From NCBI RefSeq assembly GCF_003231495.1, contig NZ_PQWO01000039.1:1-24555 (forward strand): a DNA stretch of 24,555 nt, given 5' to 3'. Shown here piece by piece: positions 1 through 24,555 of the stretch. Source of the DNA: Acaryochloris thomasi RCC1774 (GTDB taxonomy: Bacteria > Cyanobacteriota > Cyanobacteriia > Thermosynechococcales > Thermosynechococcaceae). Under the pieces are notes generated by a model. The model was not told the DNA's origin. It did no database searches and was given only the letters and a program-made list of their open reading frames with translations. The stretch's first letter is position 1. Every line of letters begins with the position of its first letter. The position numbers were made by a program, and so were the translations under genes.

Positions 1-127
1 CCTATACCTAGAAAGGAATGTGTCAATTTCGCTGCCTCGAAAAATGCGAAAATTAGCGCCTGAAACCTATACCCTCAAAAAGTTACAGCCTTAGCGTTGT
101 TTTCTGTTCCGATGTACCCTAAACACC
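1..127. mobile_element. One arm of a ~480-bp non-autonomous Tn3-family-like miniature element (the other arm is 24203..24555 if the sequence is circular)
   Basis: The reverse complement of 1..127 aligns with 24203..~24335. The first 42 nt are identical and the rest is roughly three-quarters identical by eye. No ORF. The outer tip at 127 abuts TATTT (128..132). Confidence 0.6.
86..127. repeat. Tn3-family-type terminal inverted repeat, copy 1 (tip at 127, element interior to the left)
   Basis: The reverse complement is GGTGTTTAGGGTACATCGGAACAGAAAACAACGCTAAGGCTG, identical to 24203..24244. It shares the Tn3 IR signature (GG tip, GGAAC.GAAAAC core, ACG.TAAG inner end), as recalled from GGGGTCTGACGCTCAGTGGAACGAAAACTCACGTTAAG. 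Confidence 0.75.
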
Positions 128-132
128 TATTT

Positions 133-170
133 CATCAGCACTATCGATCACATTTGATTTTGATGAGTAG
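133..170 (+). other. Orphaned 3' tail (about 12 codons plus stop) of the gene interrupted at 24202
   Basis: Deleting the element and one TATTT copy joins ...CCT ATT T to CA TCA GCA CTA TCG ATC ACA TTT GAT TTT GAT GAG TAG. The join is in frame, giving ...SPISSALSITFDFDE*. Confidence 0.55.
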
Positions 171-190: not shown

Positions 191-213
191 GAGAGTGATC
201 AAAACCAGGGGAA
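191..213. repeat. Left 23-bp inverted repeat bounding an 884-bp decayed transposon remnant
   Basis: GAGAGTGATCAAAACCAGGGGAA matches the reverse complement of 1052..1074 at 22/23 positions. It abuts the stop codon of the transposase fragment (214..216). Confidence 0.6.
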
Positions 214-510
214 TCAAGCAGCCATAGGCATTTCCTCCACTGGTCCTGCTCGTGGGTACCATTCTTCAATCGTCTCCTTCCACTCAGCATTGAGAACCTT
301 TGTTCTCACTTGAAGCAACAAATGAGCACCCTTGGGTGTCCAGCGCATCTGTTGCTTTTTCTCCATCCGCTTAGCAATGATCTGATTGACAGCAGACTCC
401 ACAAACCCGGTTGAAATCCTTTCACCACAACGATATCGCTCTCCATAGTTTTGGATAAACCCCTGGTTGTTGTGGATGTACACCCTGAATTCTCGGATCG
501 CCTTGACCAT
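214..510 (-). pseudogene. DDE transposase, C-terminal ~98-aa fragment (ISKra4-like by remembered motifs)
   Basis: ...NYGERYRCGERISTGFVESAVNQIIAKRMEKKQQMRWTPKGAHLLLQVRTKVLN... is a C-terminal transposase signature. No N-terminal catalytic region is present. The fragment ends at ~510, where a resolvase fragment begins. Confidence 0.6.
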
Positions 511-1025
511 CTTGCTCGCAGCTCGATAAGCTCAGGGGCTGTGACAAGATTTTTCAGGAGAAGCGCAGTGGTGTTTCAAACCAACGGCCTCGGCTTAAGG
601 CTTGTCTGGAGTATGTCAGGGATGGAGACACGCTGGTAGTGACTCGGTTAGATCGGCTGGCCCGCTCTACGCTCCACTTGTGCCAGTTGGCAGAGCAATT
701 GAATAGCAAGCAGGTCCATCTACAAGTGCTTGACCAGAGTATTGATACTGCTGATGCAACTGGTCGGTTGCTCTTTAATGTGCTGGGAGCGATCGCACAA
801 TTTGAAACTGAAATCAGAGCAGAACGCCAGATGGATGGAATCAAAAATGCGAAAGTTCGTGGGGTCAGTTTTGGGCGTAAGAATAAGTTGAATCAACAGC
901 AGTGTTCCGAGCTACGGCAAAGGCGAGAGCAGGGGGAGCTGATCCGGGTGCTCATGAAGGATTACGGTCTTGCTAAGGCCAGTGTCTATCGATACCTCAA
1001 TGATGCCGAAGAGGGATGTGACTGA
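507..1025 (+). pseudogene. Serine recombinase/resolvase lacking its N-terminal ~20-25 residues (catalytic Ser region missing)
   Basis: The frame is open from 507: ...QLDKLRGCDKIFQEKRSGVSNQRPRLKACLEYVRDGDTLVVTRLDRLARS, then ...GAIAQFETEIRAERQMDGI..., then a C-terminal HTH (LAKASVYRYL). The usual MxxGYxRVSTxxQ start is absent. The ORF track reports only the 639 GTG-initiated part. Confidence 0.8.
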
Positions 1026-1051
1026 AGGATCTCAAGTGCAAGGGATCCAGC

Positions 1052-1074
1052 TTCCCCCGGTTTTGATCACTCTC
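1052..1074. repeat. Right 23-bp inverted repeat partner of 191..213
   Basis: TTCCCCCGGTTTTGATCACTCTC is the reverse complement of 191..213 with one mismatch. It lies 26 bp after the resolvase stop. Confidence 0.6.
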
Positions 1075-4086: not shown

Positions 4087-4605
4087 TTAAAGACAGGCTT
4101 GTAATAGCTGATTTATTTCATCATTACTCAAACCATCTTGGTCAATTTTAGATAAAGCTTCAATTCTTTCTATAAGAACTCTTATATTGGCAAAAGAAAC
4201 TCCACCTGATGTCCCCAAAGTCGCGAGAGCAGCTCCAATATCAATAAAGGCAGCAACAAATCTTAAGGCCGATCGAATTTTATTTAATTTATCAATGGCA
4301 ATCTTAACTTTAGAAGTGACGCAACCAATTGTAGCTACCGCTTCAATAACATCAGTAGATGTTATGATACCTAAGGCTGCTTTAGTGTCAAGTTCTATTG
4401 CTTTTGTAAAACATTGATTAATTCTAGCGCTCGTTAAATCTATATCATCACGTTTTCTTTCAATGGAATCTTGCGGATCACCATTATTTATCGAGTCTCC
4501 GAGTTCATTCTGCAATATCAGTACACGAGATGTTAACTGATTTCCCATTTCGCGAAAATCAGCGGCTGTTTTTTGTAAGTTTTCTGAACTTAAATCTTGA
4601 GACAT
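4087..4605 (-). CDS. Hypothetical 172-aa all-helical protein with a small-residue (Gly/Ala) hydrophobic segment
   Basis: Complete ORF, 38 bp downstream of the lipoprotein gene on the same strand. The segment ALRFVAAFIDIGAALATLGTSGGVSF looks like a glycine-zipper or membrane-active helix. I recognise no family. Confidence 0.5.
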   Translation of the reverse strand: MSQDLSSENLQKTAADFREMGNQLTSRVLILQNELGDSINNGDPQDSIERKRDDIDLTSARINQCFTKAIELDTKAALGIITSTDVIEAVATIGCVTSKVKIAIDKLNKIRSALRFVAAFIDIGAALATLGTSGGVSFANIRVLIERIEALSKIDQDGLSNDEINQLLQACL

Positions 4606-4643
4606 AGCACACTCCGTTAAATAATGAAGATAAAAAACTGAAT

Positions 4644-5645
4644 TTAATCTGTAAAGACTTTGTCCGCTCTATCATTGAGAATTGCGACTTCTCTCGAATA
4701 GCTTTCAATAACTAAAACTAGATCTTCTGGGTATATAGTGCTCGATTTGGCAAATAAGCTTTCAAGGCCAGGAGTATTTTCGCATGTCAAATTCTCAGCG
4801 TTCTCAGTTTTGGTTTTTAGAAACAGGTTCTTTAAGCTTGCGTGATCACATGCAATTCCTTTCAGTAATGTCAAATAACTAGCAGCAAGATCTTGTTTTA
4901 GACGAATAGTTTCTTGATTCTCTGACCAATTTGACTTTAATACCTCAGTTACGTACTGCCGAACGGCAATCCCTTGACCTTCTCTTTGGTTAAAAATAGG
5001 GTTGATTAACAGTTTATAATAGGAGTCAAGGCTATTTCGCTCAGTCTCTAGAAGACCATTAACATAGTGATTCTTAATGGAGGTATCTAGTGCTACTACA
5101 AGCTTCGTCAAAGATGGATCTGCTGTAATAACTGCTTCTTTTAACTCCCTGCGGCGATAGTTGTTGGTAAATGCTGTGAATAGTATGCGTGCTAGTGCTG
5201 TCCCAGCACTAACTGCCTCTTGGCGTTGACCCGAATCTAGGCCAGGTAGTCGCTGAATCGATTCTCCAACGGCATTAATTTCGGTATCATAATTAGTCAG
5301 ATCATTTGCTGCAAGAGCACCCAAGGAACCTAAATATTCACGAATGATATTGTGTGTTTGGGTATACGCTTTTTTCAAGGCAATCGAACCGGTCTCGGGA
5401 TTATTGCAAACAGCTTCCCTTACACCTCTATCTGTATCAATAGTTTCACGATTTAGAATAATATAGTCTAGTTGTCGAATGCAAGTTTTATATACGTCAT
5501 CAGAAATTTTAGGAAAAAGCTCGGCAGACTGTGTTTGAAATTCTGCATATTTTTGTACTGCTTTAATTTCTAGAGGGGTTCCACACCCACTAAATAAAAA
5601 AACCGCAGGAGCAAGAAAGGGAATAAATTTTTTCTTTGATAGCAT
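4644..5645 (-). CDS. Putative lipoprotein, 333 aa, helical, unknown function
   Basis: The N-terminus MLSKKKFIPFLAPAVFLFSGCG has basic residues, a hydrophobic core and the lipobox LFSG|C. The mature part is predicted helical by composition. An AT-rich promoter-like region lies upstream. Confidence 0.65.
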   Translation of the reverse strand: MLSKKKFIPFLAPAVFLFSGCGTPLEIKAVQKYAEFQTQSAELFPKISDDVYKTCIRQLDYIILNRETIDTDRGVREAVCNNPETGSIALKKAYTQTHNIIREYLGSLGALAANDLTNYDTEINAVGESIQRLPGLDSGQRQEAVSAGTALARILFTAFTNNYRRRELKEAVITADPSLTKLVVALDTSIKNHYVNGLLETERNSLDSYYKLLINPIFNQREGQGIAVRQYVTEVLKSNWSENQETIRLKQDLAASYLTLLKGIACDHASLKNLFLKTKTENAENLTCENTPGLESLFAKSSTIYPEDLVLVIESYSREVAILNDRADKVFTD

Positions 5646-5810
5646 AACAACTTTCTCAATAGTTTTCGATAATGGATAAAATGATATTTACATAATAGAG
5701 TAGTATTTTCTTGATAAATACAACTTTATTAATTAATCCATTCTTCTTAAGAGATTTTTTTGCATAACTTCCCGAAAAGGTATACTCCAGATTGAAATGA
5801 GTGAGTTTTA

Positions 5811-6038
5811 TCAGAGTGGGAGCTGCATCAACTGCTGAAGAATTGCTTTCATATCAATGAGCTCAGGTTTTCTACTAAACTCATAGCGGCCATAGAAGTT
5901 GATATGCTGCCATGCCACTAGCGACACGAGTCTAAGCATCGCAATCCTGGCGGCATTCCCCTGGCTTTCACTGCAGAGAAATAGGTCAGATAAGATGGGC
6001 ATGTTGTAGTAGATGATGCAATTGATCAGCAGGCAATA
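5811..6038 (-). pseudogene. Tn3-family transposase (TnpA), extreme C-terminal ~75-aa remnant
   Basis: The extended frame reads YCLLINCIIYYNMPIL...LRLVSLVAWQHINFYGRYEFS. This matches the conserved Tn3-family C-terminus (LL.N.I..WN ... LSP..W.HIN..G.Y.F). Nothing upstream of it is present. Confidence 0.65.
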
Positions 6039-6095
6039 TCATCTGAAATTTCATTTGAAACACCTAATTACTCGACCTCAATATCATCAATAGAA

Positions 6096-7658
6096 TCACG
6101 AAATACGCGCTTTAAATCCCATTTTTACTGAAGAATTTGTGATATCGTAAATTTCTAAATTTGATAACGTACCATCCCACCATCGACTGTCAGGTGTAGT
6201 ATTGTCATTAAATTGATCATTATTCCCGGCATAGAAAAGATCTGTAGCATCACCTTCCCAATTCCCCTGCTTTTTTTCTAAATCATATCTGCCATCTGCT
6301 TGAACAAGTGAGCATTCAAAATGATACTTAGCTGTCATTTGTTCATGATTGTTGCTGCCGTCTATATCAACATGCCAAATAGCTATTCCTGCAGAAGGAA
6401 TATTTTTATCACGTCCACTCTGCTGCCGATTTTCAATTATAAAATATTCACGTTCATTTTTTCTGTGTATATAGAAATTATTTGTTCCAGATTGAATTAC
6501 TAAATTACTATCTTCTTCAACATTCAATATATTATTAGACCAACCAGCACGGTATTTGAGGTAGGCGCAAACTTGACTTGGATTTTTGTCATCAATATCT
6601 AAGCTATTACTCATCAAGCAAAAAGCACCAACACCAAATGAGGGTGGTTTAAATTCATCATATAGATCTGGAAAATTGCATATTAAATGTCCTGTTTCAT
6701 GACAAATCGTCCCCAATAATAATTGATCACTAATGTTTACTACGATATAGTCATTAGCTATTTTTTCTGGACTCAACATATATTCCTTTGAAAAATAACC
6801 AGTATGAGGGAATAGACCATCTACTCCTAATTGGGTATCATGATCGAAATCGCCTGCATATAAGATACTAATCGCATGAACGTAATTTTCATCGTCTACA
6901 GATAAACTAGAAAAATTAAAATCATTCAATTCTAAATATTCTAAGGCTTCAATTACTAATTCTTCTGAACGAGTACCGTATGGCTGAGTTTTATCTGAAT
7001 AGTATGACTTATTTTGTTTAGCTGTATAATACGGAGCAATAACATTCTTATATTTCAATTTACCATCTGAGTTTTCTAAGAAATAATCGCAAACAGAGCC
7101 ATTATTTCCAAAACCCGTATAACCTCTCAAATTAAAAAAATCATCAACTTCTGATGTAGTAATAAAGCTAGGAATAGATTCGTCAGGAAAAGCAACTACA
7201 ATACATAATCCTACAATATCGCCAACTACGTGGTGCTTGTCTGAATCTAACAGCGGTGCTGAATCTGACAAATTCGAGGATATCTGATCAGCATTAATTT
7301 GCTCGTATCTTTGTAGCCAACGAGGTTTTACTAAACTATCTACTGAGTTTATAAAATCATCTTGTTTCTGTTTTTCATGTATGAGTCTCAAGTTTTTTGC
7401 AAAGCTTAGATTTGTGGCTTCTCTTTCTTTGTCAAGAATAATTCCACTTGGAATAAGTTTATCAGAAGTTTCATTAAGTCTTGCATATTGATAAGTTCCA
7501 GTATATTGATCCTTTATTACTCTAAAACCATCAACCGTTTCGAATATAGTGTAATGGTGATTTCCCCAACCAATTACATCGAATGAATTACCATCTGGCT
7601 GACTAAATGCTAATTGTCGTCCAGCAAAAGGAAATGATTTAATATACGGTTTGTCCAT
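6096..7658 (-). CDS. M6 (immune inhibitor A-like) family zinc metalloprotease domain protein, no obvious signal peptide
   Basis: HETGHLICNFPDLYDE fits the HExxH...PD.Y signature of InhA/M6 peptidases. The protein is 520 aa and its N-terminus MDKPYIKSFPFAGRQ is not signal-like. Confidence 0.6.
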   Translation of the reverse strand: MDKPYIKSFPFAGRQLAFSQPDGNSFDVIGWGNHHYTIFETVDGFRVIKDQYTGTYQYARLNETSDKLIPSGIILDKEREATNLSFAKNLRLIHEKQKQDDFINSVDSLVKPRWLQRYEQINADQISSNLSDSAPLLDSDKHHVVGDIVGLCIVVAFPDESIPSFITTSEVDDFFNLRGYTGFGNNGSVCDYFLENSDGKLKYKNVIAPYYTAKQNKSYYSDKTQPYGTRSEELVIEALEYLELNDFNFSSLSVDDENYVHAISILYAGDFDHDTQLGVDGLFPHTGYFSKEYMLSPEKIANDYIVVNISDQLLLGTICHETGHLICNFPDLYDEFKPPSFGVGAFCLMSNSLDIDDKNPSQVCAYLKYRAGWSNNILNVEEDSNLVIQSGTNNFYIHRKNEREYFIIENRQQSGRDKNIPSAGIAIWHVDIDGSNNHEQMTAKYHFECSLVQADGRYDLEKKQGNWEGDATDLFYAGNNDQFNDNTTPDSRWWDGTLSNLEIYDITNSSVKMGFKARIS

Positions 7659-15011: not shown

Positions 15012-15284
15012 ATGATGCAGCAAGAATTTACCACTCAAGAACACATCAACGCCGATGGTGTCTTACTTCTCAACGTACCGGAGCTGAAAGACAAAGATGT
15101 CGAAGTGGTGGTGAGACCCATCGCATCCGCTGCCCTGGAAACAGAACCACAACCGGAAAGCTTAGCAAAGGCCCTAGAAGGACTGATCGGTGTATGCAGC
15201 TTTGAACCGGACGATTTATCCGAGCACACCAGCGAAACCTATGCGGCTTTACTCGCTCGTGATTATGACCAAACGCAACAATAA
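15012..15284 (+). CDS. Putative antitoxin of a VapBC-like pair
   Basis: 90-aa ORF whose stop overlaps the PIN gene start (TAATG), which is typical translational coupling. Confidence 0.6.
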   Translation: MMQQEFTTQEHINADGVLLLNVPELKDKDVEVVVRPIASAALETEPQPESLAKALEGLIGVCSFEPDDLSEHTSETYAALLARDYDQTQQ

Positions 15285-15700
15285 TGCTGCTGTGTGACAC
15301 TTCTCCTCTCATTGCAATCATTAACAAACGAGATAGAAATCATCATCGCTGTGTTGATGCGCTCTCAACATTAGAAAAGCCTTTACTCACCACATTATTT
15401 TGCTTTACGGAAGCCATGTACTTACTGGGAGCGCGCGATGGCTGGCGAGGTCAAGAAACACTCTGGCAATTTCGGCAACGGGACGTACTGTTGCTCTATC
15501 CCTTAAATGATCTGCAGCTGGACCGTGCCTATGCTCTGATGGAGCAATATAGAAACGTACCGATGGATCTAGGCGATGCCTCTCTAGTCGTTGCTGCTGA
15601 AACCCTCAAGCAGAACCGTATCTTTACGCTGGATAAGGATTTCTACATCTATCGCCTGCCAGGGAACCAAGCCTTTGAGGTGATTCCAGGATTGCAATGA
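15284..15700 (+). CDS. PIN-domain ribonuclease toxin (VapC-like)
   Basis: MLLCDTSPLIAI (first acidic residue), FTEAMYLL, DLGDASLVVAAE and FTLDKDF match the four conserved PIN acidic positions. Confidence 0.8.
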   Translation: MLLCDTSPLIAIINKRDRNHHRCVDALSTLEKPLLTTLFCFTEAMYLLGARDGWRGQETLWQFRQRDVLLLYPLNDLQLDRAYALMEQYRNVPMDLGDASLVVAAETLKQNRIFTLDKDFYIYRLPGNQAFEVIPGLQ

Positions 15701-18255: not shown

Positions 18256-18275
18256 TAGAAGTTTTCACAGAAATC

Positions 18276-18331
18276 ATTTTTAGCGAAAGAGCGTTTTAGC
18301 GAAGTTACTAAAACGCTCTTTCGCTAAAAAT
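18276..18331. repeat. Perfect 24-bp-stem inverted repeat (8-nt loop) carrying TAGCGAA motifs; a bidirectional terminator and/or a second partition site
   Basis: ATTTTTAGCGAAAGAGCGTTTTAG cgaagtta CTAAAACGCTCTTTCGCTAAAAAT, located between convergent genes. It overlaps the stop of the 124-aa ORF by 1 nt. Confidence 0.7.
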
Positions 18332-18705
18332 CATTCGATATTGCCAAAGCCTCTCACCTGCGCTCTCCGTTTGCGGATAGGTAACTTTTTGTCATCAGGT
18401 CTAGGTGCTTCAAGGGTGAAGGCTCCCATCTGCTCGTCAATGGTCAAGGCCATGACCATTTGCTGTTCTGGATCATGTGCCTCAAATTGCGCTTGTAAAC
18501 TTGATAGGCCACTATCCTCGATAAAGGTAGAGACTTGAGACGCTTTGAGAAAACGAGCTTCTAGATCACAGAACTCCGACTCAGGATAAACGTTAACCTC
18601 AAGTACACCAGGTCCCTTCTCTGACGAAAGCTCAAAATAATAGGACTTTAGATCTGGTAGTTCATCAGATATCTGTTGAAGGAGTTGCTGCTCGTCACCC
18701 GACAT
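18331..18705 (-). CDS. Hypothetical acidic 124-aa protein, third gene of the antitoxin-PIN operon
   Basis: It starts 26 bp after the PIN gene stop on the same strand. No recognisable motif. Basic C-terminal tail KKLPIRKRRAQVRGF. Confidence 0.45.
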   Translation of the reverse strand: MSGDEQQLLQQISDELPDLKSYYFELSSEKGPGVLEVNVYPESEFCDLEARFLKASQVSTFIEDSGLSSLQAQFEAHDPEQQMVMALTIDEQMGAFTLEAPRPDDKKLPIRKRRAQVRGFGNIE

Positions 18706-18731: not shown

Positions 18732-19205
18732 CTACATGTTGCCATCATCTTGGGCAAGCTCAAACTCATCATCCACCTGATCGGGAGAAACAGCCGTAAT
18801 CTCCTCGAACCGTTTGAAGTCCTTCACATTGAAGGTCAGGATATGGGTAATGCCATGAACCAGCATCGCTGCAACCAGCCTAGTGTCGTGAACCTTTGCC
18901 CCCTTGACGTTATACCTTGTCACTAGAGAGCGCCAGTGAGAGTATATTGCGGGTGTATCACCTTTAAGGATAAATGCAGCCTCTATTTCTTCAAGCTTGA
19001 TTTCTGCCTGACTAATACTCAACCCAAGCCCATTATTCTCAAGCGGTCGGGTACATACATTCCAGAACTCAGCCATAATTTGGGGAACGATCACCAGCTC
19101 TTGCTTAGCAAGATGCAGAGAACGTAACGCTGCGGCTGCTTGCTTATACTGGGGATGATCTGGTTGCTGCTTTCGTAACAGAACGTTGGTATCGACAAGA
19201 AACAT
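18732..19205 (-). CDS. PIN-domain toxin (VapC-like)
   Basis: MFLVDTNVLL, AEFWNV, VHDTRLVAAM and LTFNVKDF are PIN acidic-residue contexts. ATGA overlap with the upstream antitoxin. Confidence 0.8.
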   Translation of the reverse strand: MFLVDTNVLLRKQQPDHPQYKQAAAALRSLHLAKQELVIVPQIMAEFWNVCTRPLENNGLGLSISQAEIKLEEIEAAFILKGDTPAIYSHWRSLVTRYNVKGAKVHDTRLVAAMLVHGITHILTFNVKDFKRFEEITAVSPDQVDDEFELAQDDGNM

Positions 19206-19450
19206 CAGCCGCGTGATGAATATAGATTTTCTCGGCTGATCGCTTCGTCAGAGAGTAAAGGAGCATCAGGGATGGTCGAAGCCATGAAGACTTCAAAAGC
19301 TTTACGCCGCTGTTCTACCTCACTTTGAACAGAAGTAGTCTGCTGTTGCTCTGGTAGATCCAGAACAATCACCCGTACTCGATGACCTTGCAGCTCAGGG
19401 GCATGGGTTAAGACTTCTTCCCAGGTTCCTTCAAGTGTTTGCCCAGTCAT
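19205..19450 (-). CDS. Putative antitoxin for the PIN toxin
   Basis: 81 aa, with a 1-nt ATGA overlap with the PIN gene. The C-terminal ...LSDEAISRENLY resembles cyanobacterial PIN-associated antitoxin tails. Confidence 0.6.
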   Translation of the reverse strand: MTGQTLEGTWEEVLTHAPELQGHRVRVIVLDLPEQQQTTSVQSEVEQRRKAFEVFMASTIPDAPLLSDEAISRENLYSSRG

Positions 19451-20274: not shown

Positions 20275-20538
20275 GTCAGAGGACAGTACAGTTAATCAAC
20301 GAAAATAGATTAAGGAAAGTTTGCATAACTGTGAATAGATTCTCTGATAGCTAAGAGGATATCTATAAAATTTTCATTCACAAATCAATCTAAATATATT
20401 TTTCTAGAGATAATTTACGAATCAATATTTCATGTTATATGTAATATCAGGTGGGAAAACGCAAAAAACTGGAGTAAGTTTAATCCAGTCAATCTAATAT
20501 CCATAACACTGAACCTCATAGTACATTAGCAATTTACT

Positions 20539-20577
20539 AGACTGTATATTTAATTCGTACTATTAAATATACAGTCT
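20539..20577. repeat. 15-bp perfect AT-rich inverted repeat with a 9-nt loop
   Basis: AGACTGTATATTTAA ttcgtacta TTAAATATACAGTCT, in the AT-rich spacer between the recombinase and the pentapeptide gene. Confidence 0.5.
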
Positions 20578-20873
20578 AATAAATTTATTTTCTGTTGAGG
20601 GTATTTTTGCTAGAAAAATGCAGTATTGGTAATAACAGCAAATATTCATATTCTTTAGTGTTTAAAATTACTACAGAAGCATAATAACTAACCCACAGAG
20701 AAAAGATAGGAATAGAAATTTTTTTGCTTTTTGACCTGCAGTTGAAATAGTGAGCCATACTTTTCGCTGCCAGCATTAAGGATGTGTCCACATCAAATTT
20801 ATAGAGCGCAAAGTATTTGATTGGTAAGTCCTCAAAAGACTATTTCAATTAAGTTTACTTAAAGGAACCTCAT

Positions 20874-22764: not shown

Positions 22765-22935
22765 ATGAAAACAGTGACCGGAATCGTATTACTACCTCTA
22801 ACATTGAGTTATATAGTAGGTCTTCCAGCCATAACCGCCGAGACCCCCTGCTACTACAGAGAGCAGACTTATCCCCATGGCACTCGACTCGGAGCATATA
22901 TCTGCAACTGTGGTACTTGGGAACCAATACAGTAG
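22765..22935 (+). CDS. Unannotated 56-aa secreted Cys-containing peptide
   Basis: GGAG lies 8 nt upstream of the ATG. MKTVTGIVLLPLTLSYIVGLPAITA|ETPCYYREQTYPHGTRLGAYICNCGTWEPIQ* has a signal-peptide-like N-terminus. The C.Y....Y..G.....C...G.W pattern recalls DUF1496-type small proteins (from memory). The listed 67-aa minus-strand ORF is its shadow. Confidence 0.5.
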   Translation: MKTVTGIVLLPLTLSYIVGLPAITAETPCYYREQTYPHGTRLGAYICNCGTWEPIQ

Positions 22936-23124: not shown

Positions 23125-23180
23125 CAGTTCCCCCTCTTATATTAACTTTTCCGTAAAAGTTAATATAAGAGGGGGAACTG
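23125..23180. repeat. 56-bp perfect palindrome (26-bp arms, 4-nt loop)
   Basis: CAGTTCCCCCTCTTATATTAACTTTT ccgt AAAAGTTAATATAAGAGGGGGAACTG, located 70 bp upstream of the 23251 ORF. Confidence 0.8.
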
Positions 23181-23250: not shown

Positions 23251-24255
23251 GTGATGAGTGATAAGCAAGAGTCTTCTATTTCTCCTAATACATCTACAAA
23301 AAAAGTAAATGATCTGTCTTTAATTTATCCTCGTCCTGATTTAGCTTTGCCAGATGATATAAAGAACTTTTTGTTTCAGCTTTTTTCTGACTGCAACAGG
23401 AAAATATCGTATCAATTTTGCACCTTCCCAAATGCTCATGAAGAGTCTCTAGATCTAATATTTATATCTCACTTTGCATCTATGCAGGGAGCAATTAAGT
23501 TTGGTTCACATTGGACATTAAAAATTGATGCTCACTTTATTGGAGGAGGTAGACATTACCGGACATGGGAGGTAGCAGATATTGGCTTGATGGTAATGTT
23601 CCGAAAGAATGGCAAGATAACTCGTAGCAAATTAACCTTTCTACAATCCAAAAAACTGTACGCTAGTACTCTTAAGTATAAGCCTTCTGATCCTTACCAC
23701 CGCTCTGGGCTAGGAAGATTATTAGTAACGGAAGAAGAGCATAGAGATCTAGTAGAACCAAAAACTATCAATTTTTCTGAAAATTCAAAATATAAAGCAA
23801 TAAAATCAAATAATGATCAGCATATTGCGATGAGTGAATTCTCTATCGAAAACAAAATAACGCTTCACTATCTATTATATAATCCTTCAATCATACCTTG
23901 GACAATTAAATCTCCAATTGAAGAATTACCTTATGAAAACAAAAACCTAGTTGGCTGTAGAGTTATTCCTAAACCAATAATGGATAACATGCTTATAGAT
24001 AAAAACAATGATTATTCACCATCTTATAAAGATGTAAAAGAAAAATTTAAATTGGATCAATCAAATAGAGAGTCTAATGCAGGTTGGAGAATGGAGGATT
24101 TTATCTGCGATTTATTTATACAAGGTGAAGAAGGTTTAGTTGATGATTCTCCTAACTTTGAAACTATGCTTAGTATAATGAGTCGGAAAACAAGTCCTAT
24201 TTGGTGTTTAGGGTACATCGGAACAGAAAACAACGCTAAGGCTGCAGCGCTTTGA
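23251..24255 (+). CDS. PD-(D/E)xK nuclease-like hypothetical protein, 3' end interrupted by the Tn3-type miniature element at 24202/24203
   Basis: NAHEESLDLIF ... EVADIGLMVMFRKNGKITRSKLTFLQSKKL gives an E ... D-x22-QxK arrangement with hydrophobic strands after the D and before QxK. The last 17 residues (WCLGYIGTENNAKAAAL) are encoded by the transposon IR. The likely true start is the ATG at 23254. Confidence 0.55.
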   Translation: MMSDKQESSISPNTSTKKVNDLSLIYPRPDLALPDDIKNFLFQLFSDCNRKISYQFCTFPNAHEESLDLIFISHFASMQGAIKFGSHWTLKIDAHFIGGGRHYRTWEVADIGLMVMFRKNGKITRSKLTFLQSKKLYASTLKYKPSDPYHRSGLGRLLVTEEEHRDLVEPKTINFSENSKYKAIKSNNDQHIAMSEFSIENKITLHYLLYNPSIIPWTIKSPIEELPYENKNLVGCRVIPKPIMDNMLIDKNNDYSPSYKDVKEKFKLDQSNRESNAGWRMEDFICDLFIQGEEGLVDDSPNFETMLSIMSRKTSPIWCLGYIGTENNAKAAAL

Positions 24256-24555
24256 CAGCATAGGTTTCAGGCGTTATTTTTCGCCTTTTTCAGAGCACCT
24301 AAATCGATGTATCTCTTTCTATGTATAGGTTTGAGAGAAATAACTTTTTCAGTATTGAGCTTATAAACCGATGAAAGCCTTACAGGTATTGTCTTTCATC
24401 GGTTTCCGTTACAGATGAAGTCATAGTGTGTTGTTCCAGAGTAGGTCTACTACTCCAGGCCAAATACTAAAAATGCTGAATTACGAGTCACAGTCTGTTG
24501 CTTCTGATGAGAATGCTCTACTCACTGATCACTTTCTTTAGTGCGCTCATTGCGA
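24203..24555. mobile_element. Other arm of the ~480-bp Tn3-family-like miniature element (tip at 24203, interior to the right)
   Basis: It begins with the 42-nt IR GGTGTTTAGGGTACATCGGAACAGAAAACAACGCTAAGGCTG, preceded by TATTT. Subterminal ATAGGTTT motifs are repeated. There is an internal 13-bp-stem hairpin at 24365..24405 (AAACCGATGAAAG ... CTTTCATCGGTTT). No ORF. Confidence 0.65.

What the first reader, a model, noticed from the sequence alone, without database searches (positions are those of the whole stretch)
23251..24255. Nuclease-like orphan gene inactivated at its 3' end, with a reading frame that is restored across the circle
The 334-aa ORF carries a PD-(D/E)xK-style core (EESLD ... 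EVADIGLMVMF-x-LTFLQSKK). This is the kind of fold used by many stand-alone or two-component anti-phage effectors, such as HamA/DUF1837- or DUF4365-like proteins. Its last 17 codons are read out of the transposon IR. Removing the element and one TATTT copy continues the frame into 133..170, ending ...SPISSALSITFDFDE*. The insertion therefore replaced only the last 13 residues. The gene is AT-rich, sits in an accessory island on a mobilizable plasmid and is preceded by a 56-bp perfect palindrome. It may be a new single-gene defence or addiction nuclease, or the first gene of a system whose partner was lost.
Basis: partly seen in the sequence, partly recalled or inferred. Interest (0 to 1): 0.65.

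Follow-up and report, generated by a model that had tools for sequence, protein, structure and literature searches.

The report
Transposon-disrupted nuclease-like gene of uncharacterised family
The gene is a copy, broken at its 3' end by a mobile-element insertion, of a widespread but unstudied bacterial protein family that looks like a stand-alone DNA-cutting enzyme and often sits among anti-phage genes. It is therefore not an orphan, and the family is only a moderately interesting candidate defence gene.

Summary
The sequence-level observation holds. An ORF (ATG 23254) runs into a Tn3-type inverted repeat at 24203. A TATTT duplication flanks the element (24198-24202 and 128-132). Removing the element restores a 328-aa protein ending SSALSITFDFDE, which is the conserved C-terminus of its homologs. 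Three corrections apply:
- The gene is not an orphan. About 480 sequence clusters across at least eight phyla match it, and none has a Pfam, NCBIfam, PHROG or PADLOC model.
- Twelve residues were replaced, not 13. In a confident AlphaFold model (pLDDT 89.6) they form a terminal beta-strand, so this copy is probably dead.
- Closure of the circle is not shown. The left contig end lies exactly 127 nt inside the element, so 480 bp is only a lower bound for its size.

E63, D109, K126, Q131 and K133 are invariant in 84 diverse members, and the secondary-structure order fits the core fold shared by restriction endonucleases (helix, three strands, helix, strand; PD-(D/E)xK). However, Foldseek finds no significant PDB match, and profile comparison with Mrr fails, as do the HamA, DUF1837 and DUF4365 models. 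No neighbouring gene is conserved. Many loci lie in defence islands or mobile elements.

Best reading: a disrupted member of a new stand-alone nuclease-like accessory family. The nuclease and defence functions are inferred, not shown.

The parts
23254..24202 (+). Native part of the disrupted CDS: codons 1-316 plus the first base of codon 317. The mechanical ORF start is GTG 23251; homologs align from ATG 23254.
23440..23454 (+). E63-E64-S-L-D67 at the N-terminus of the predicted helix 63-75. E63 is invariant and D67 is at least 90% conserved.
23569..23580 (+). E106-V-A-D109, immediately before the predicted strand 110-118. D109 is invariant and E106 is at least 90% conserved.
23629..23652 (+). 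K126 through Q131-S132-K133 on the predicted strand 121-134. K126, Q131 and K133 are invariant. This is the QxK half of the proposed D...QxK site.
24203..24255 (+). Foreign tail: 17 codons (WCLGYIGTENNAKAAAL) and a stop, read out of the element's inverted repeat. The W codon uses T24202 as its first base.
133..170 (+). Displaced native 3' end: the rest of codon 317, codons 318-328 (SSALSITFDFDE) and a TAG stop. It encodes the conserved C-terminal beta-strand.
24198..24202 (.). Target-site duplication TATTT, left copy.
128..132 (.). Target-site duplication TATTT, right copy.
24203..24555 (.). Left end of the inserted Tn3-type element. It holds a 38-nt terminal IR (GGTGTTTAGGG...CGCTAAG), an extended imperfect arm to 24330 and an internal hairpin at 24365-24405. 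No frame is open in this stretch.
1..127 (.). Right end of the same element, in inverted orientation. It is 83% complementary to 24203-24329 and its outer 42 nt are identical. It is exactly 127 nt long and cut by the window boundary.
23125..23180 (.). Perfect 26+4+26 palindrome, 73 bp upstream of the ATG. Its function is unknown. It has no T-run, gave no promoter or terminator call, and has no match elsewhere.

Best explanation
The ORF is a 3'-disrupted copy of a conserved protein family of about 300 aa. The family is patchily distributed among bacteria and has no curated model and no characterised member.

Shown: a Tn3-type element with 38-bp terminal IRs and a 5-bp TATTT duplication inserted after codon 316. 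It replaced the last 12 residues with 17 IR-encoded ones. In the intact protein those 12 residues are conserved and form a confidently predicted terminal beta-strand.

Inferred: this copy is therefore most likely inactive or destabilised.

Inferred: the intact family protein is most likely a stand-alone, metal-dependent DNA endonuclease. Its active site would follow the PD-(D/E)xK pattern in its 'PD-QxK' version. E63/D67 lie on the helix before the sheet, E106/D109 at the start of one strand, and K126 and Q131-x-K133 on the hairpin-partner strand. By the usual scheme for this kind of site (my inference), the acidic residues would hold Mg2+ and K133 would position the attacking water.

Inferred: it behaves as a horizontally moving accessory gene, most plausibly for defence or exclusion against foreign DNA. 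No methyltransferase, antitoxin, helicase or ATPase is conserved beside it. Discrimination between self and foreign DNA would therefore have to be built into the protein, for example dependence on modified DNA as in Type IV enzymes, or activation on infection.
For: Disruption and restoration: and alignment A1.

C-terminal strand: residues 318-326 form a strand, the last pLDDT block is 94, and the model has pLDDT 89.6 and pTM 0.87. P315, S317, S321, I322, T323 and D325 are conserved.

Family size and lack of annotation.

Invariant residues: E63, D109, K126, Q131 and K133 are invariant in 84 sequences down to 24% identity. They are also invariant in the 10 most divergent members.

Secondary structure: the order is H63-75, E87-95, E110-118, E121-134 ... 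H188-200, E204-209, which is helix-strand-strand-strand-helix-strand. D109 sits at the start of the second strand and QxK on the third. The QxK motif on beta3 is the documented Mrr-like 'PD-QXK' subgroup (PMC11347163 and PMC11037411).

Recurrent sub-threshold structural hits to nucleases of this fold: Hjc, EcoRV, HincII and CinB; UL24 and a Holliday-junction resolvase; Hjc, HincII, EcoRV and tRNA-splicing endonuclease.

Single-gene status: no neighbour family is shared by 3 or more of 21 loci, and adjacent genes are unrelated to each other.

Defence or mobile contexts:
- Type I R-M, Dcm-type methylase, Fic and HicB.
- Type I R-M, PDDEXK_13 and Wadjet JetABCD.
- PLD plus AAA, and ATP-binding plus UvrD.
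- Abi_alpha immediately adjacent in two loci.
- An HNH/PtuB-like gene 490 bp away.
- A three-integrase element that appears to be inserted in yhcG.
- RteC.
- Toxin-antitoxin modules.

Other copies are also degraded: L015 is truncated, and L020 is frameshifted and abuts an insertion sequence (IS). The distribution spans at least 8 phyla.
Against: The high-confidence model has no significant Foldseek match in the PDB (best E about 1) or in BFVD (best E 2.6e-3, to an unnamed protein).

No Pfam family of this nuclease superfamily is hit by any of 84 members at E<=1. Profile-profile comparison with the Mrr family gives probability below 1%. Searching the PDB with the family profile finds nothing. 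The fold assignment therefore rests on motif, strand order and noise-level hits.

E63 sits at the very N-terminus of its helix, which is not the usual place for the helix acid in this fold.

Several loci are in ordinary metabolic neighbourhoods (RecF sits upstream of the gene in L009).

The defence association was not tested against a background rate. No homolog is found in 50,697 phage records and only 5 in 72,556 plasmids.

Nothing here shows that the tail-swapped protein is inactive.

Confidence: 0.55

Rival explanations
1. The family is an enzyme or binding protein with a fold unrelated to restriction endonucleases. The conserved E/D/K/Q residues would then serve another chemistry, and the D...QxK resemblance would be coincidental.
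For: A confident model (pLDDT 89.6) has no PDB neighbour below E of about 1. There is no Pfam, NCBIfam, PHROG or PADLOC link for any member. hhalign against Mrr is null. Other invariant positions (Q189, P211, Y206, Y209, R236, E281) are not part of any nuclease motif.
Against: The invariant acid and lysine residues fall on the helix, strand start and hairpin-partner strand where the nuclease fold places them. Among otherwise random sub-threshold structural hits, nucleases of that fold recur in three independent searches. The genomic contexts fit a DNA-targeting accessory gene.
Confidence: 0.25
2. It is a toxin or addiction-type gene, or a mobile-element maintenance gene, controlled by a variable regulator such as an HTH protein, an upstream operator or a small ORF. 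It would not be an anti-phage effector.
For: An HTH_3 gene lies 280 bp upstream in Trichocoleus. One homolog (P0208) carries an N-terminal HigA-like HTH extension, named as such by JGI. A perfect 56-bp palindrome lies upstream in the window. The gene is carried on plasmids, in a three-integrase element and next to toxin-antitoxin modules. Copies are repeatedly inactivated.
Against: No antitoxin-like neighbour is conserved. The HTH association is seen in 2 of about 27 loci plus one fusion, and Pfam does not confirm the HTH of P0208. Many loci have no regulator nearby.
Confidence: 0.12
3. The insertion is functionally neutral. The IR-encoded tail (WCLGYIG...) is also hydrophobic and strand-prone and could substitute for the lost strand, so the window's gene would still be active.
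For: The rest of the ORF is intact and keeps every invariant residue. Only 12 of 328 residues are replaced.
Against: The replaced segment is among the best conserved parts of the family (SSALSITFD). It is modelled as a structured strand with high confidence. Other copies of the family are clearly decaying.
Confidence: 0.2
4. The family has a housekeeping role, and its neighbourhoods are uninformative.
For: Some loci sit among metabolic genes or next to RecF.
Against: The distribution across phyla is patchy, with close relatives in unrelated lineages. No synteny is conserved. Composition is AT-rich against the host plasmid. Pseudogenised copies exist. Copies are carried on plasmids and in what appears to be a three-integrase element.
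Confidence: 0.04

Closest known systems
Mrr-like 'PD-QXK' modification-dependent restriction endonucleases (Mrr_cat PF04471; BisI/NhoI family)
   Same: Both have a D ... Q-x-K arrangement with QxK on the third core strand. Both are stand-alone genes of about 300 aa without a cognate methyltransferase, found in defence islands.
   Different: No sequence or profile similarity was found (hhalign probability below 1%). There is no Mrr_N winged-helix domain. The nuclease-like motif lies in the N-terminal half here, not the C-terminal half. No Foldseek hit was found to any solved Mrr- or BisI-type structure.
Archaeal Holliday-junction resolvase Hjc, a minimal nuclease of this fold
   Same: It is the most frequent sub-threshold structural hit (2wcw, 2wj0, 1gef, 2eo0, 4tkd, 1hh1). 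It has the same helix-acid, strand-start D and (E/Q)xK layout.
   Different: E-values are 0.1-5 and TM-scores normalised to the query are 0.1-0.2. Hjc is about 125 aa, whereas this family is 300 aa with about 170 extra structured residues. There is no sequence similarity.
HamA (DUF1837) of Hachiman, and DUF4365
   Same: Both are nuclease-like defence-associated proteins of the restriction-endonuclease kind.
   Different: No PADLOC or Pfam hit was found for the protein or for 84 family members. No HamB-type helicase or any other conserved partner is present.
[quoted passage not shown]
   Same: The terminal IRs are 38 nt and end in TAAG. They match the canonical Tn3 IR, recalled from memory, at 23 of 38 positions. 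There is a 5-bp target duplication. The 480 nt that are visible hold no open frame. A related gene-less element of about 1,029 bp with similar IRs exists in Acaryochloris pMB01. The TIME concept is described in PMC4133298 and PMC13367494.
   Different: The IR starts GGTG rather than GGGG. The arms extend to at least 128 nt at 83% identity. The interior may be incomplete. No intact Tn3-family transposase is present in the window, only a possible 3' remnant at 5811-6002.

Membership tests
PD-(D/E)xK (restriction-endonuclease-like) superfamily | Core of helix, three strands, helix, strand | tested here: inconclusive
   The secondary-structure order of two AlphaFold models fits: H63-75, E87-95, E110-118, E121-134, H188-200, E204-209.
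PD-(D/E)xK (restriction-endonuclease-like) superfamily | Conserved acid on the first helix, D at the start of the second strand, (D/E/Q)xK on the third strand | tested here: met
   E63, D109, Q131 and K133 are invariant in 84 sequences and in the 10 most divergent ones.
PD-(D/E)xK (restriction-endonuclease-like) superfamily | Significant structural similarity to a solved member | tested here: not met
PD-(D/E)xK (restriction-endonuclease-like) superfamily | Sequence or profile similarity to a curated family of the clan | tested here: not met
   Pfam scans of the protein and of all 84 members at E<=1 give no clan member. A PDB profile search finds nothing.
Mrr_cat / PD-QxK Type IV restriction enzymes | Homology to the Mrr catalytic domain | tested here: not met
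   hhalign of A3 against E. coli Mrr, and against a 28-sequence Mrr alignment, gives probability 0.2-0.5%. The template alignment had low diversity (Neff 2.4).
Mrr_cat / PD-QxK Type IV restriction enzymes | Cleavage depends on modified DNA | not testable with these tools
   Needs biochemistry or genetics.
HamA/DUF1837 (Hachiman) or DUF4365 | Match to the family HMM, and for HamA an adjacent HamB helicase | tested here: not met
   There are no PADLOC or Pfam hits. No conserved neighbour exists.
Type II restriction-modification system | Cognate DNA methyltransferase gene adjacent | tested here: not met
   A DNA_methylase gene lies within 400 bp in only one locus (L003). It is absent next to the gene in the window and in the other loci examined, about 25 in all.
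Type II toxin-antitoxin toxin | Conserved small adjacent antitoxin gene | tested here: not met
   Adjacent ORFs share no similarity between loci (phmmer at E<0.1).
Tn3-family element / TIME (the insertion) | Terminal IRs of about 38 bp of Tn3 type, and a 5-bp target duplication | tested here: met
   The Tn3 IR used for the comparison was recalled from memory.
Tn3-family element / TIME (the insertion) | Miniature, with no transposase inside | tested here: inconclusive
   The 353 + 127 nt that are visible hold no open frame. The window ends inside the element, and closure is not demonstrated.

The most novel reading that the evidence does not exclude
The family is a new single-gene anti-phage or anti-plasmid nuclease whose fold has no solved relative. 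It would use a D...QxK site embedded in a 300-aa single domain, would recognise foreign DNA without any partner (for example through DNA modification), and would be costly enough to be repeatedly knocked out by mobile elements, as in this plasmid.
Probability: 0.3. Interest if true: 0.6.

Novelty: new variant of a known kind. Interest (0 to 1): 0.42.

Why it matters
If the family is an autonomous defence nuclease, it would add a compact system of about 900 bp and one gene. That system is currently invisible to Pfam, NCBIfam, PADLOC and structure-based annotation, although it is present in at least eight phyla. It would also give a new structural template.

The specific locus gives a clean, dated example of a Tn3-type element knocking out such a gene on a small cyanobacterial (Acaryochloris-like) plasmid.

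If the family is not a nuclease, it is still a well-conserved 'dark' family with a confident model and no structural neighbour. That has some value for fold cataloguing, but little beyond it.

Tried and rejected
- Orphan status: rejected.
- Pfam, PADLOC, NCBIfam and PHROGs on the restored protein and on homologs: nothing. A Pfam scan of all 84 members at E<=1 gave only scattered single chance hits.
- PDB sequence search with two family profiles: only chance hits.
- Foldseek, three runs: nothing significant.
- hhalign against Mrr, as a single sequence and as a family alignment: null.
- Reaching outward from the 10 most divergent members: more of the same family and no annotated relatives.
- N-terminally extended members scanned for fused domains: none confirmed. 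The kinase hit in P0251 is a likely chimera.
- Conserved-partner search by all-against-all BLAST and phmmer of neighbours: none.
- Near and distant DNA searches against plasmids, for the gene region and for the upstream region: no match.
- Two metagenome scans for the IR, one exact and one degenerate: 0 hits. Other copies of the element, or its autonomous partner, could therefore not be found.
- The Tn3-family transposase of Acaryochloris pMB01 is not flanked by this IR type.
- Exact-protein look-ups of two window proteins, made to find another assembly spanning the junction: not on record.
- Rfam scan of the window: nothing.
- Promoter and terminator scan around the palindrome: nothing.
- Accession numbers of named homologs in the literature: none found.

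Full report
**Observation**

The window holds an ORF at 23251..24255 on the + strand. Its likely start is the ATG at 23254, because the cyanobacterial homologs begin at the aligned MS(D/E)K. The ORF leaves native sequence at 24203. That is the first base of an inverted repeat whose outer 42 nt recur, reverse-complemented, at the other end of the window and end at base 127. TATTT flanks both ends, at 24198-24202 and 128-132.

Deleting the element and one TATTT copy joins 23254..24202 to 133..167. The result is a 328-aa protein ending SSALSITFDFDE, followed by TAG. This is not a chance open frame: 24 homologs from many phyla end with the same motif, SSALSITFD(F/Y/I/L)EE, directly after the shared K-x-S-P-I.

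The AT-richness is real: 32.9% GC for the ORF against 42.7% for the window, within a 31-39% block at 20.4-24.2 kb. The 56-bp perfect palindrome at 23125-23180 is also real.

**The inserted element and the 'circle'**

The IR is 38 nt long and ends in TAAG. It matches the canonical Tn3 IR, which I recalled from memory, at 23 of 38 positions. Together with the 5-bp duplication, this points to the Tn3 family. The visible part, 353 nt on the left and 127 nt on the right, has stops in every frame. Its arms are 83% complementary over 128 nt. A related gene-less element of about 1,029 bp with similar IRs lies in Acaryochloris pMB01 at L029:5051-6079. If the window is a closed circle, the element is a 480-bp miniature Tn3 derivative, a TIME (described in PMC4133298).

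Closure is not shown, however. The window ends do not overlap. The left end lies exactly 127 nt inside the element, and the arm similarity stops exactly at the window boundary. A random origin would give this pattern with a probability of about 1 in 24,555. A de Bruijn assembly with k=127 that breaks in a repeated element would give it by construction (the k value and the assembler behaviour are my own knowledge and inference). I therefore treat 480 bp as a lower bound.

Three things support the view that both ends belong to one insertion in one replicon:
- The two halves of the gene lie at the two ends.
- The IRs have the correct relative orientation.
- The gene order integrase ... S8 peptidase ... 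relaxase is shared with Acaryochloris pMB09.

Two metagenome scans for the IR found nothing. Exact look-ups of two window proteins also found nothing.

**The gene is not an orphan**

The restored protein has 173 hits in the word-indexed search. The 119 listed homologs are 45-71% identical over 65-100% of its length, most of them over at least 90%. Its profile finds 482 clusters at 50% identity in 1.84 billion representatives. Most members are single-domain proteins of 295-330 aa.

Genome loci come from Cyanobacteriota, Acidobacteriota, Verrucomicrobiota, Bacteroidota, Gammaproteobacteria, Planctomycetota, Polaromonas and Actinomycetota. Homologs also occur on Rubrobacter, Rhizobium and Methylobacterium replicons in the plasmid collection, with a partial match in Paraburkholderia.

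Every source name that describes the family domain is 'hypothetical protein'. The single different name, JGI's HigA label on P0208, refers to its N-terminal extension. No Pfam, NCBIfam, PHROG or PADLOC model matches the family. The accession numbers of named members appear in no searchable paper.

**Is it a nuclease?**

In 84 sequences that fall to 24% identity, the invariant positions are E63, D109, K126, Q131, K133, L135, Q189 and P211. D67, E106 and S132 are at least 90% conserved. The ten most divergent members keep the same set.

With the deeper alignment, AlphaFold gives a confident model (pLDDT 89.6, pTM 0.87). Its element order is helix 63-75, strands 87-95, 110-118 and 121-134, a 50-residue insert, helix 188-200 and strand 204-209. 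This is the order of the restriction-endonuclease core. D109 lies at the start of the second strand. QxK lies on the third strand, which is the hairpin partner of the second. That is the 'PD-QXK' layout described for Mrr-like modification-dependent enzymes, with QxK on beta3 (PMC11347163 and PMC11037411).

Against this, Foldseek finds nothing significant. The best BFVD E-value is 2.6e-3, to an unnamed protein. Nucleases of this fold do recur among the noise in all three runs: Hjc many times, EcoRV, HincII, CinB, herpesvirus UL24, a viral Holliday-junction resolvase and tRNA-splicing endonuclease. No single hit is evidence on its own.

Profile-profile comparison with E. coli Mrr, and with a 28-sequence Mrr alignment, gives probability below 1%. 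My position is therefore as follows. The family probably works like a nuclease of this kind (about 0.55-0.6). It cannot be filed as a member of any known family. A genuinely different fold remains possible (about 0.25).

**Consequence of the insertion**

In the confident model, residues 318-326 form a beta-strand and the last pLDDT block is 94. The segment is one of the most conserved in the family. Replacing it most likely destabilises or inactivates the protein. This is an inference, because the IR-encoded tail is itself hydrophobic. The rest of the ORF keeps every invariant residue, so the insertion is probably recent.

**Context and likely role**

All-against-all comparison of ORFs around 21 loci finds no family shared by three or more loci other than the gene itself. 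Directly adjacent genes are unrelated to one another. This is therefore a one-gene module. The idea of a lost partner has no support.

Contexts that are defence-related or mobile:
- Between a type I R-M system, a Dcm-type methylase, Fic and HicB.
- Between a type I R-M system, a PDDEXK_13 protein and Wadjet JetABCD.
- Beside a PLD plus AAA pair and an ATP-binding plus UvrD pair.
- Immediately next to an Abi_alpha gene in two unrelated loci.
- 490 bp from an HNH/PtuB-like gene.
- Flanked by two P-loop ATPases in L012.
- Beside MazEF or RelE/Phd modules.
- Next to three tyrosine-integrase genes, with fragments of a yhcG gene on either side; I read this as cargo of a mobile element that split yhcG, but did not verify it.
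- In an RteC-type region.
- On plasmids.

Other loci look metabolic. I did not test enrichment against a background rate. No homolog occurs in 50,697 phage records.

Two of the 18 genome copies are themselves degraded. One is truncated after residue 226. The other is frameshifted and abuts a transposase gene that I read from its sequence as IS3-type. This fits a dispensable and possibly costly accessory gene.

A constitutively toxic nuclease could not spread as a single gene. Self/non-self discrimination must therefore be intrinsic. Dependence on modified DNA, as in Type IV enzymes, is the simplest model, but it is purely inferred.

**The window as a whole**

The window is a small MobF-relaxase plasmid. 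It carries TrwC, ParA, two PIN genes and a tyrosine integrase. Its backbone (8.9-17.1 kb and 19.7-20.3 kb) is 74-80% identical to Acaryochloris pMB09. The relaxase is 76% identical at the protein level to those of two Acaryochloris plasmids.

The gene lies in an AT-rich accessory block that starts just after the integrase gene. A 614-aa pentapeptide-repeat protein precedes it. After the element come the relics of an ISKra4 transposase and a truncated serine recombinase.

**Verdict**

'Orphan', the HamA/DUF4365 likeness and the lost-partner idea are wrong or unsupported. The nuclease and defence reading is plausible but unproven. Interest is moderate, because the value lies in the family rather than in this broken copy.

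Noticed in passing
window 1-127 and 24203-24555: The left window end lies exactly 127 nt inside the inserted element, and the 128-nt inverted-repeat similarity stops at the window boundary. The ends do not overlap. This suggests an assembly break in a repeated element (k=127) rather than a proven closed circle, so the size of the element is unknown (at least 480 bp).
   Followed up: partly
window 191-1074: A 23-nt inverted repeat pair (191-213 and 1052-1074, 96% complementary) encloses the 3' fragment of an ISKra4-family transposase (214-510, minus strand). It also encloses a 5'-truncated serine recombinase, whose Resolvase domain starts at profile position 70 (639-1025). The stretch has DNA homology to recombinase and ISKra4 genes of Picosynechococcus, Synechocystis and Acaryochloris plasmids.
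   Followed up: partly
window 5811-6002 (minus strand): A 63-aa ORF matches the extreme C-terminus of the Tn3 transposase DDE domain (PF01526 positions 355-389, E 2e-4, below the curated cut-off; motif AWQHINFYGRYEF). This is a probable Tn3-family transposase relic. No IR of the element's type lies beside it, and the window has no intact transposase of this family.
   Followed up: partly
window 18272-18335, 20531-20585, 23125-23180: Three long intergenic palindromes with arms of 28, 24 and 26 nt, 96-100% complementary and unrelated in sequence. None has a T-run. Their roles (terminators, operators or plasmid sites) are unknown.
   Followed up: partly
window 22765-22935 (+): A 56-aa ORF with a signal-peptide-like N-terminus and four cysteines (MKTVTGIVLLPLTLSYIVGLPAITAETPCYY...CNCGTWEPIQ), lying between the pentapeptide gene and the palindrome. 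It has no Pfam hit, so it may or may not be a gene.
   Followed up: partly
window 4087-7658: An AT-rich block (32-41% GC) of minus-strand ORFs (172, 333 and 520 aa) with no Pfam hits, absent from the related plasmid pMB09. It is a second accessory segment of unknown function.
   Followed up: no
window 15012-15700 and 18732-19450: Two PIN-domain (VapC-like) genes, each abutted by a small upstream ORF (90 aa and 81 aa) in the usual toxin-antitoxin arrangement. The small ORFs have no significant Pfam hit.
   Followed up: partly
L029:5051-6079 (Acaryochloris sp. 'Moss Beach' pMB01, record 240283-241311): A gene-less element of about 1,029 bp, bounded by IRs 75-79% identical to those of the window's element and starting GGGG. 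It lies in an unannotated gap, which indicates that miniature derivatives of this IR family exist in Acaryochloris plasmids.
   Followed up: partly
L028:2472-9247: A homolog lies next to three consecutive tyrosine-integrase genes and two unknown small genes. The whole block lies between a YhcG gene (DUF1016_N/YhcG_C) and a separate YhcG_C fragment. It looks like a three-integrase mobile element that split yhcG and carries the family gene as cargo.
   Followed up: no
L015:10001-10609 and L020:10001-10848: Two other family copies are pseudogenes. One loses homology after residue 226. The other has a frameshift near residue 140-146 and a diverged 5' end next to a transposase ORF that I read as IS3-type.
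   Followed up: yes
protein P0208 (409 aa, JGI metagenome): One family member has a 98-residue N-terminal extension that reads like a HigA-type HTH antitoxin and is named as such by JGI. Pfam gave no hit at E<=0.01. It may be a real fusion or a gene-calling artefact.
   Followed up: partly
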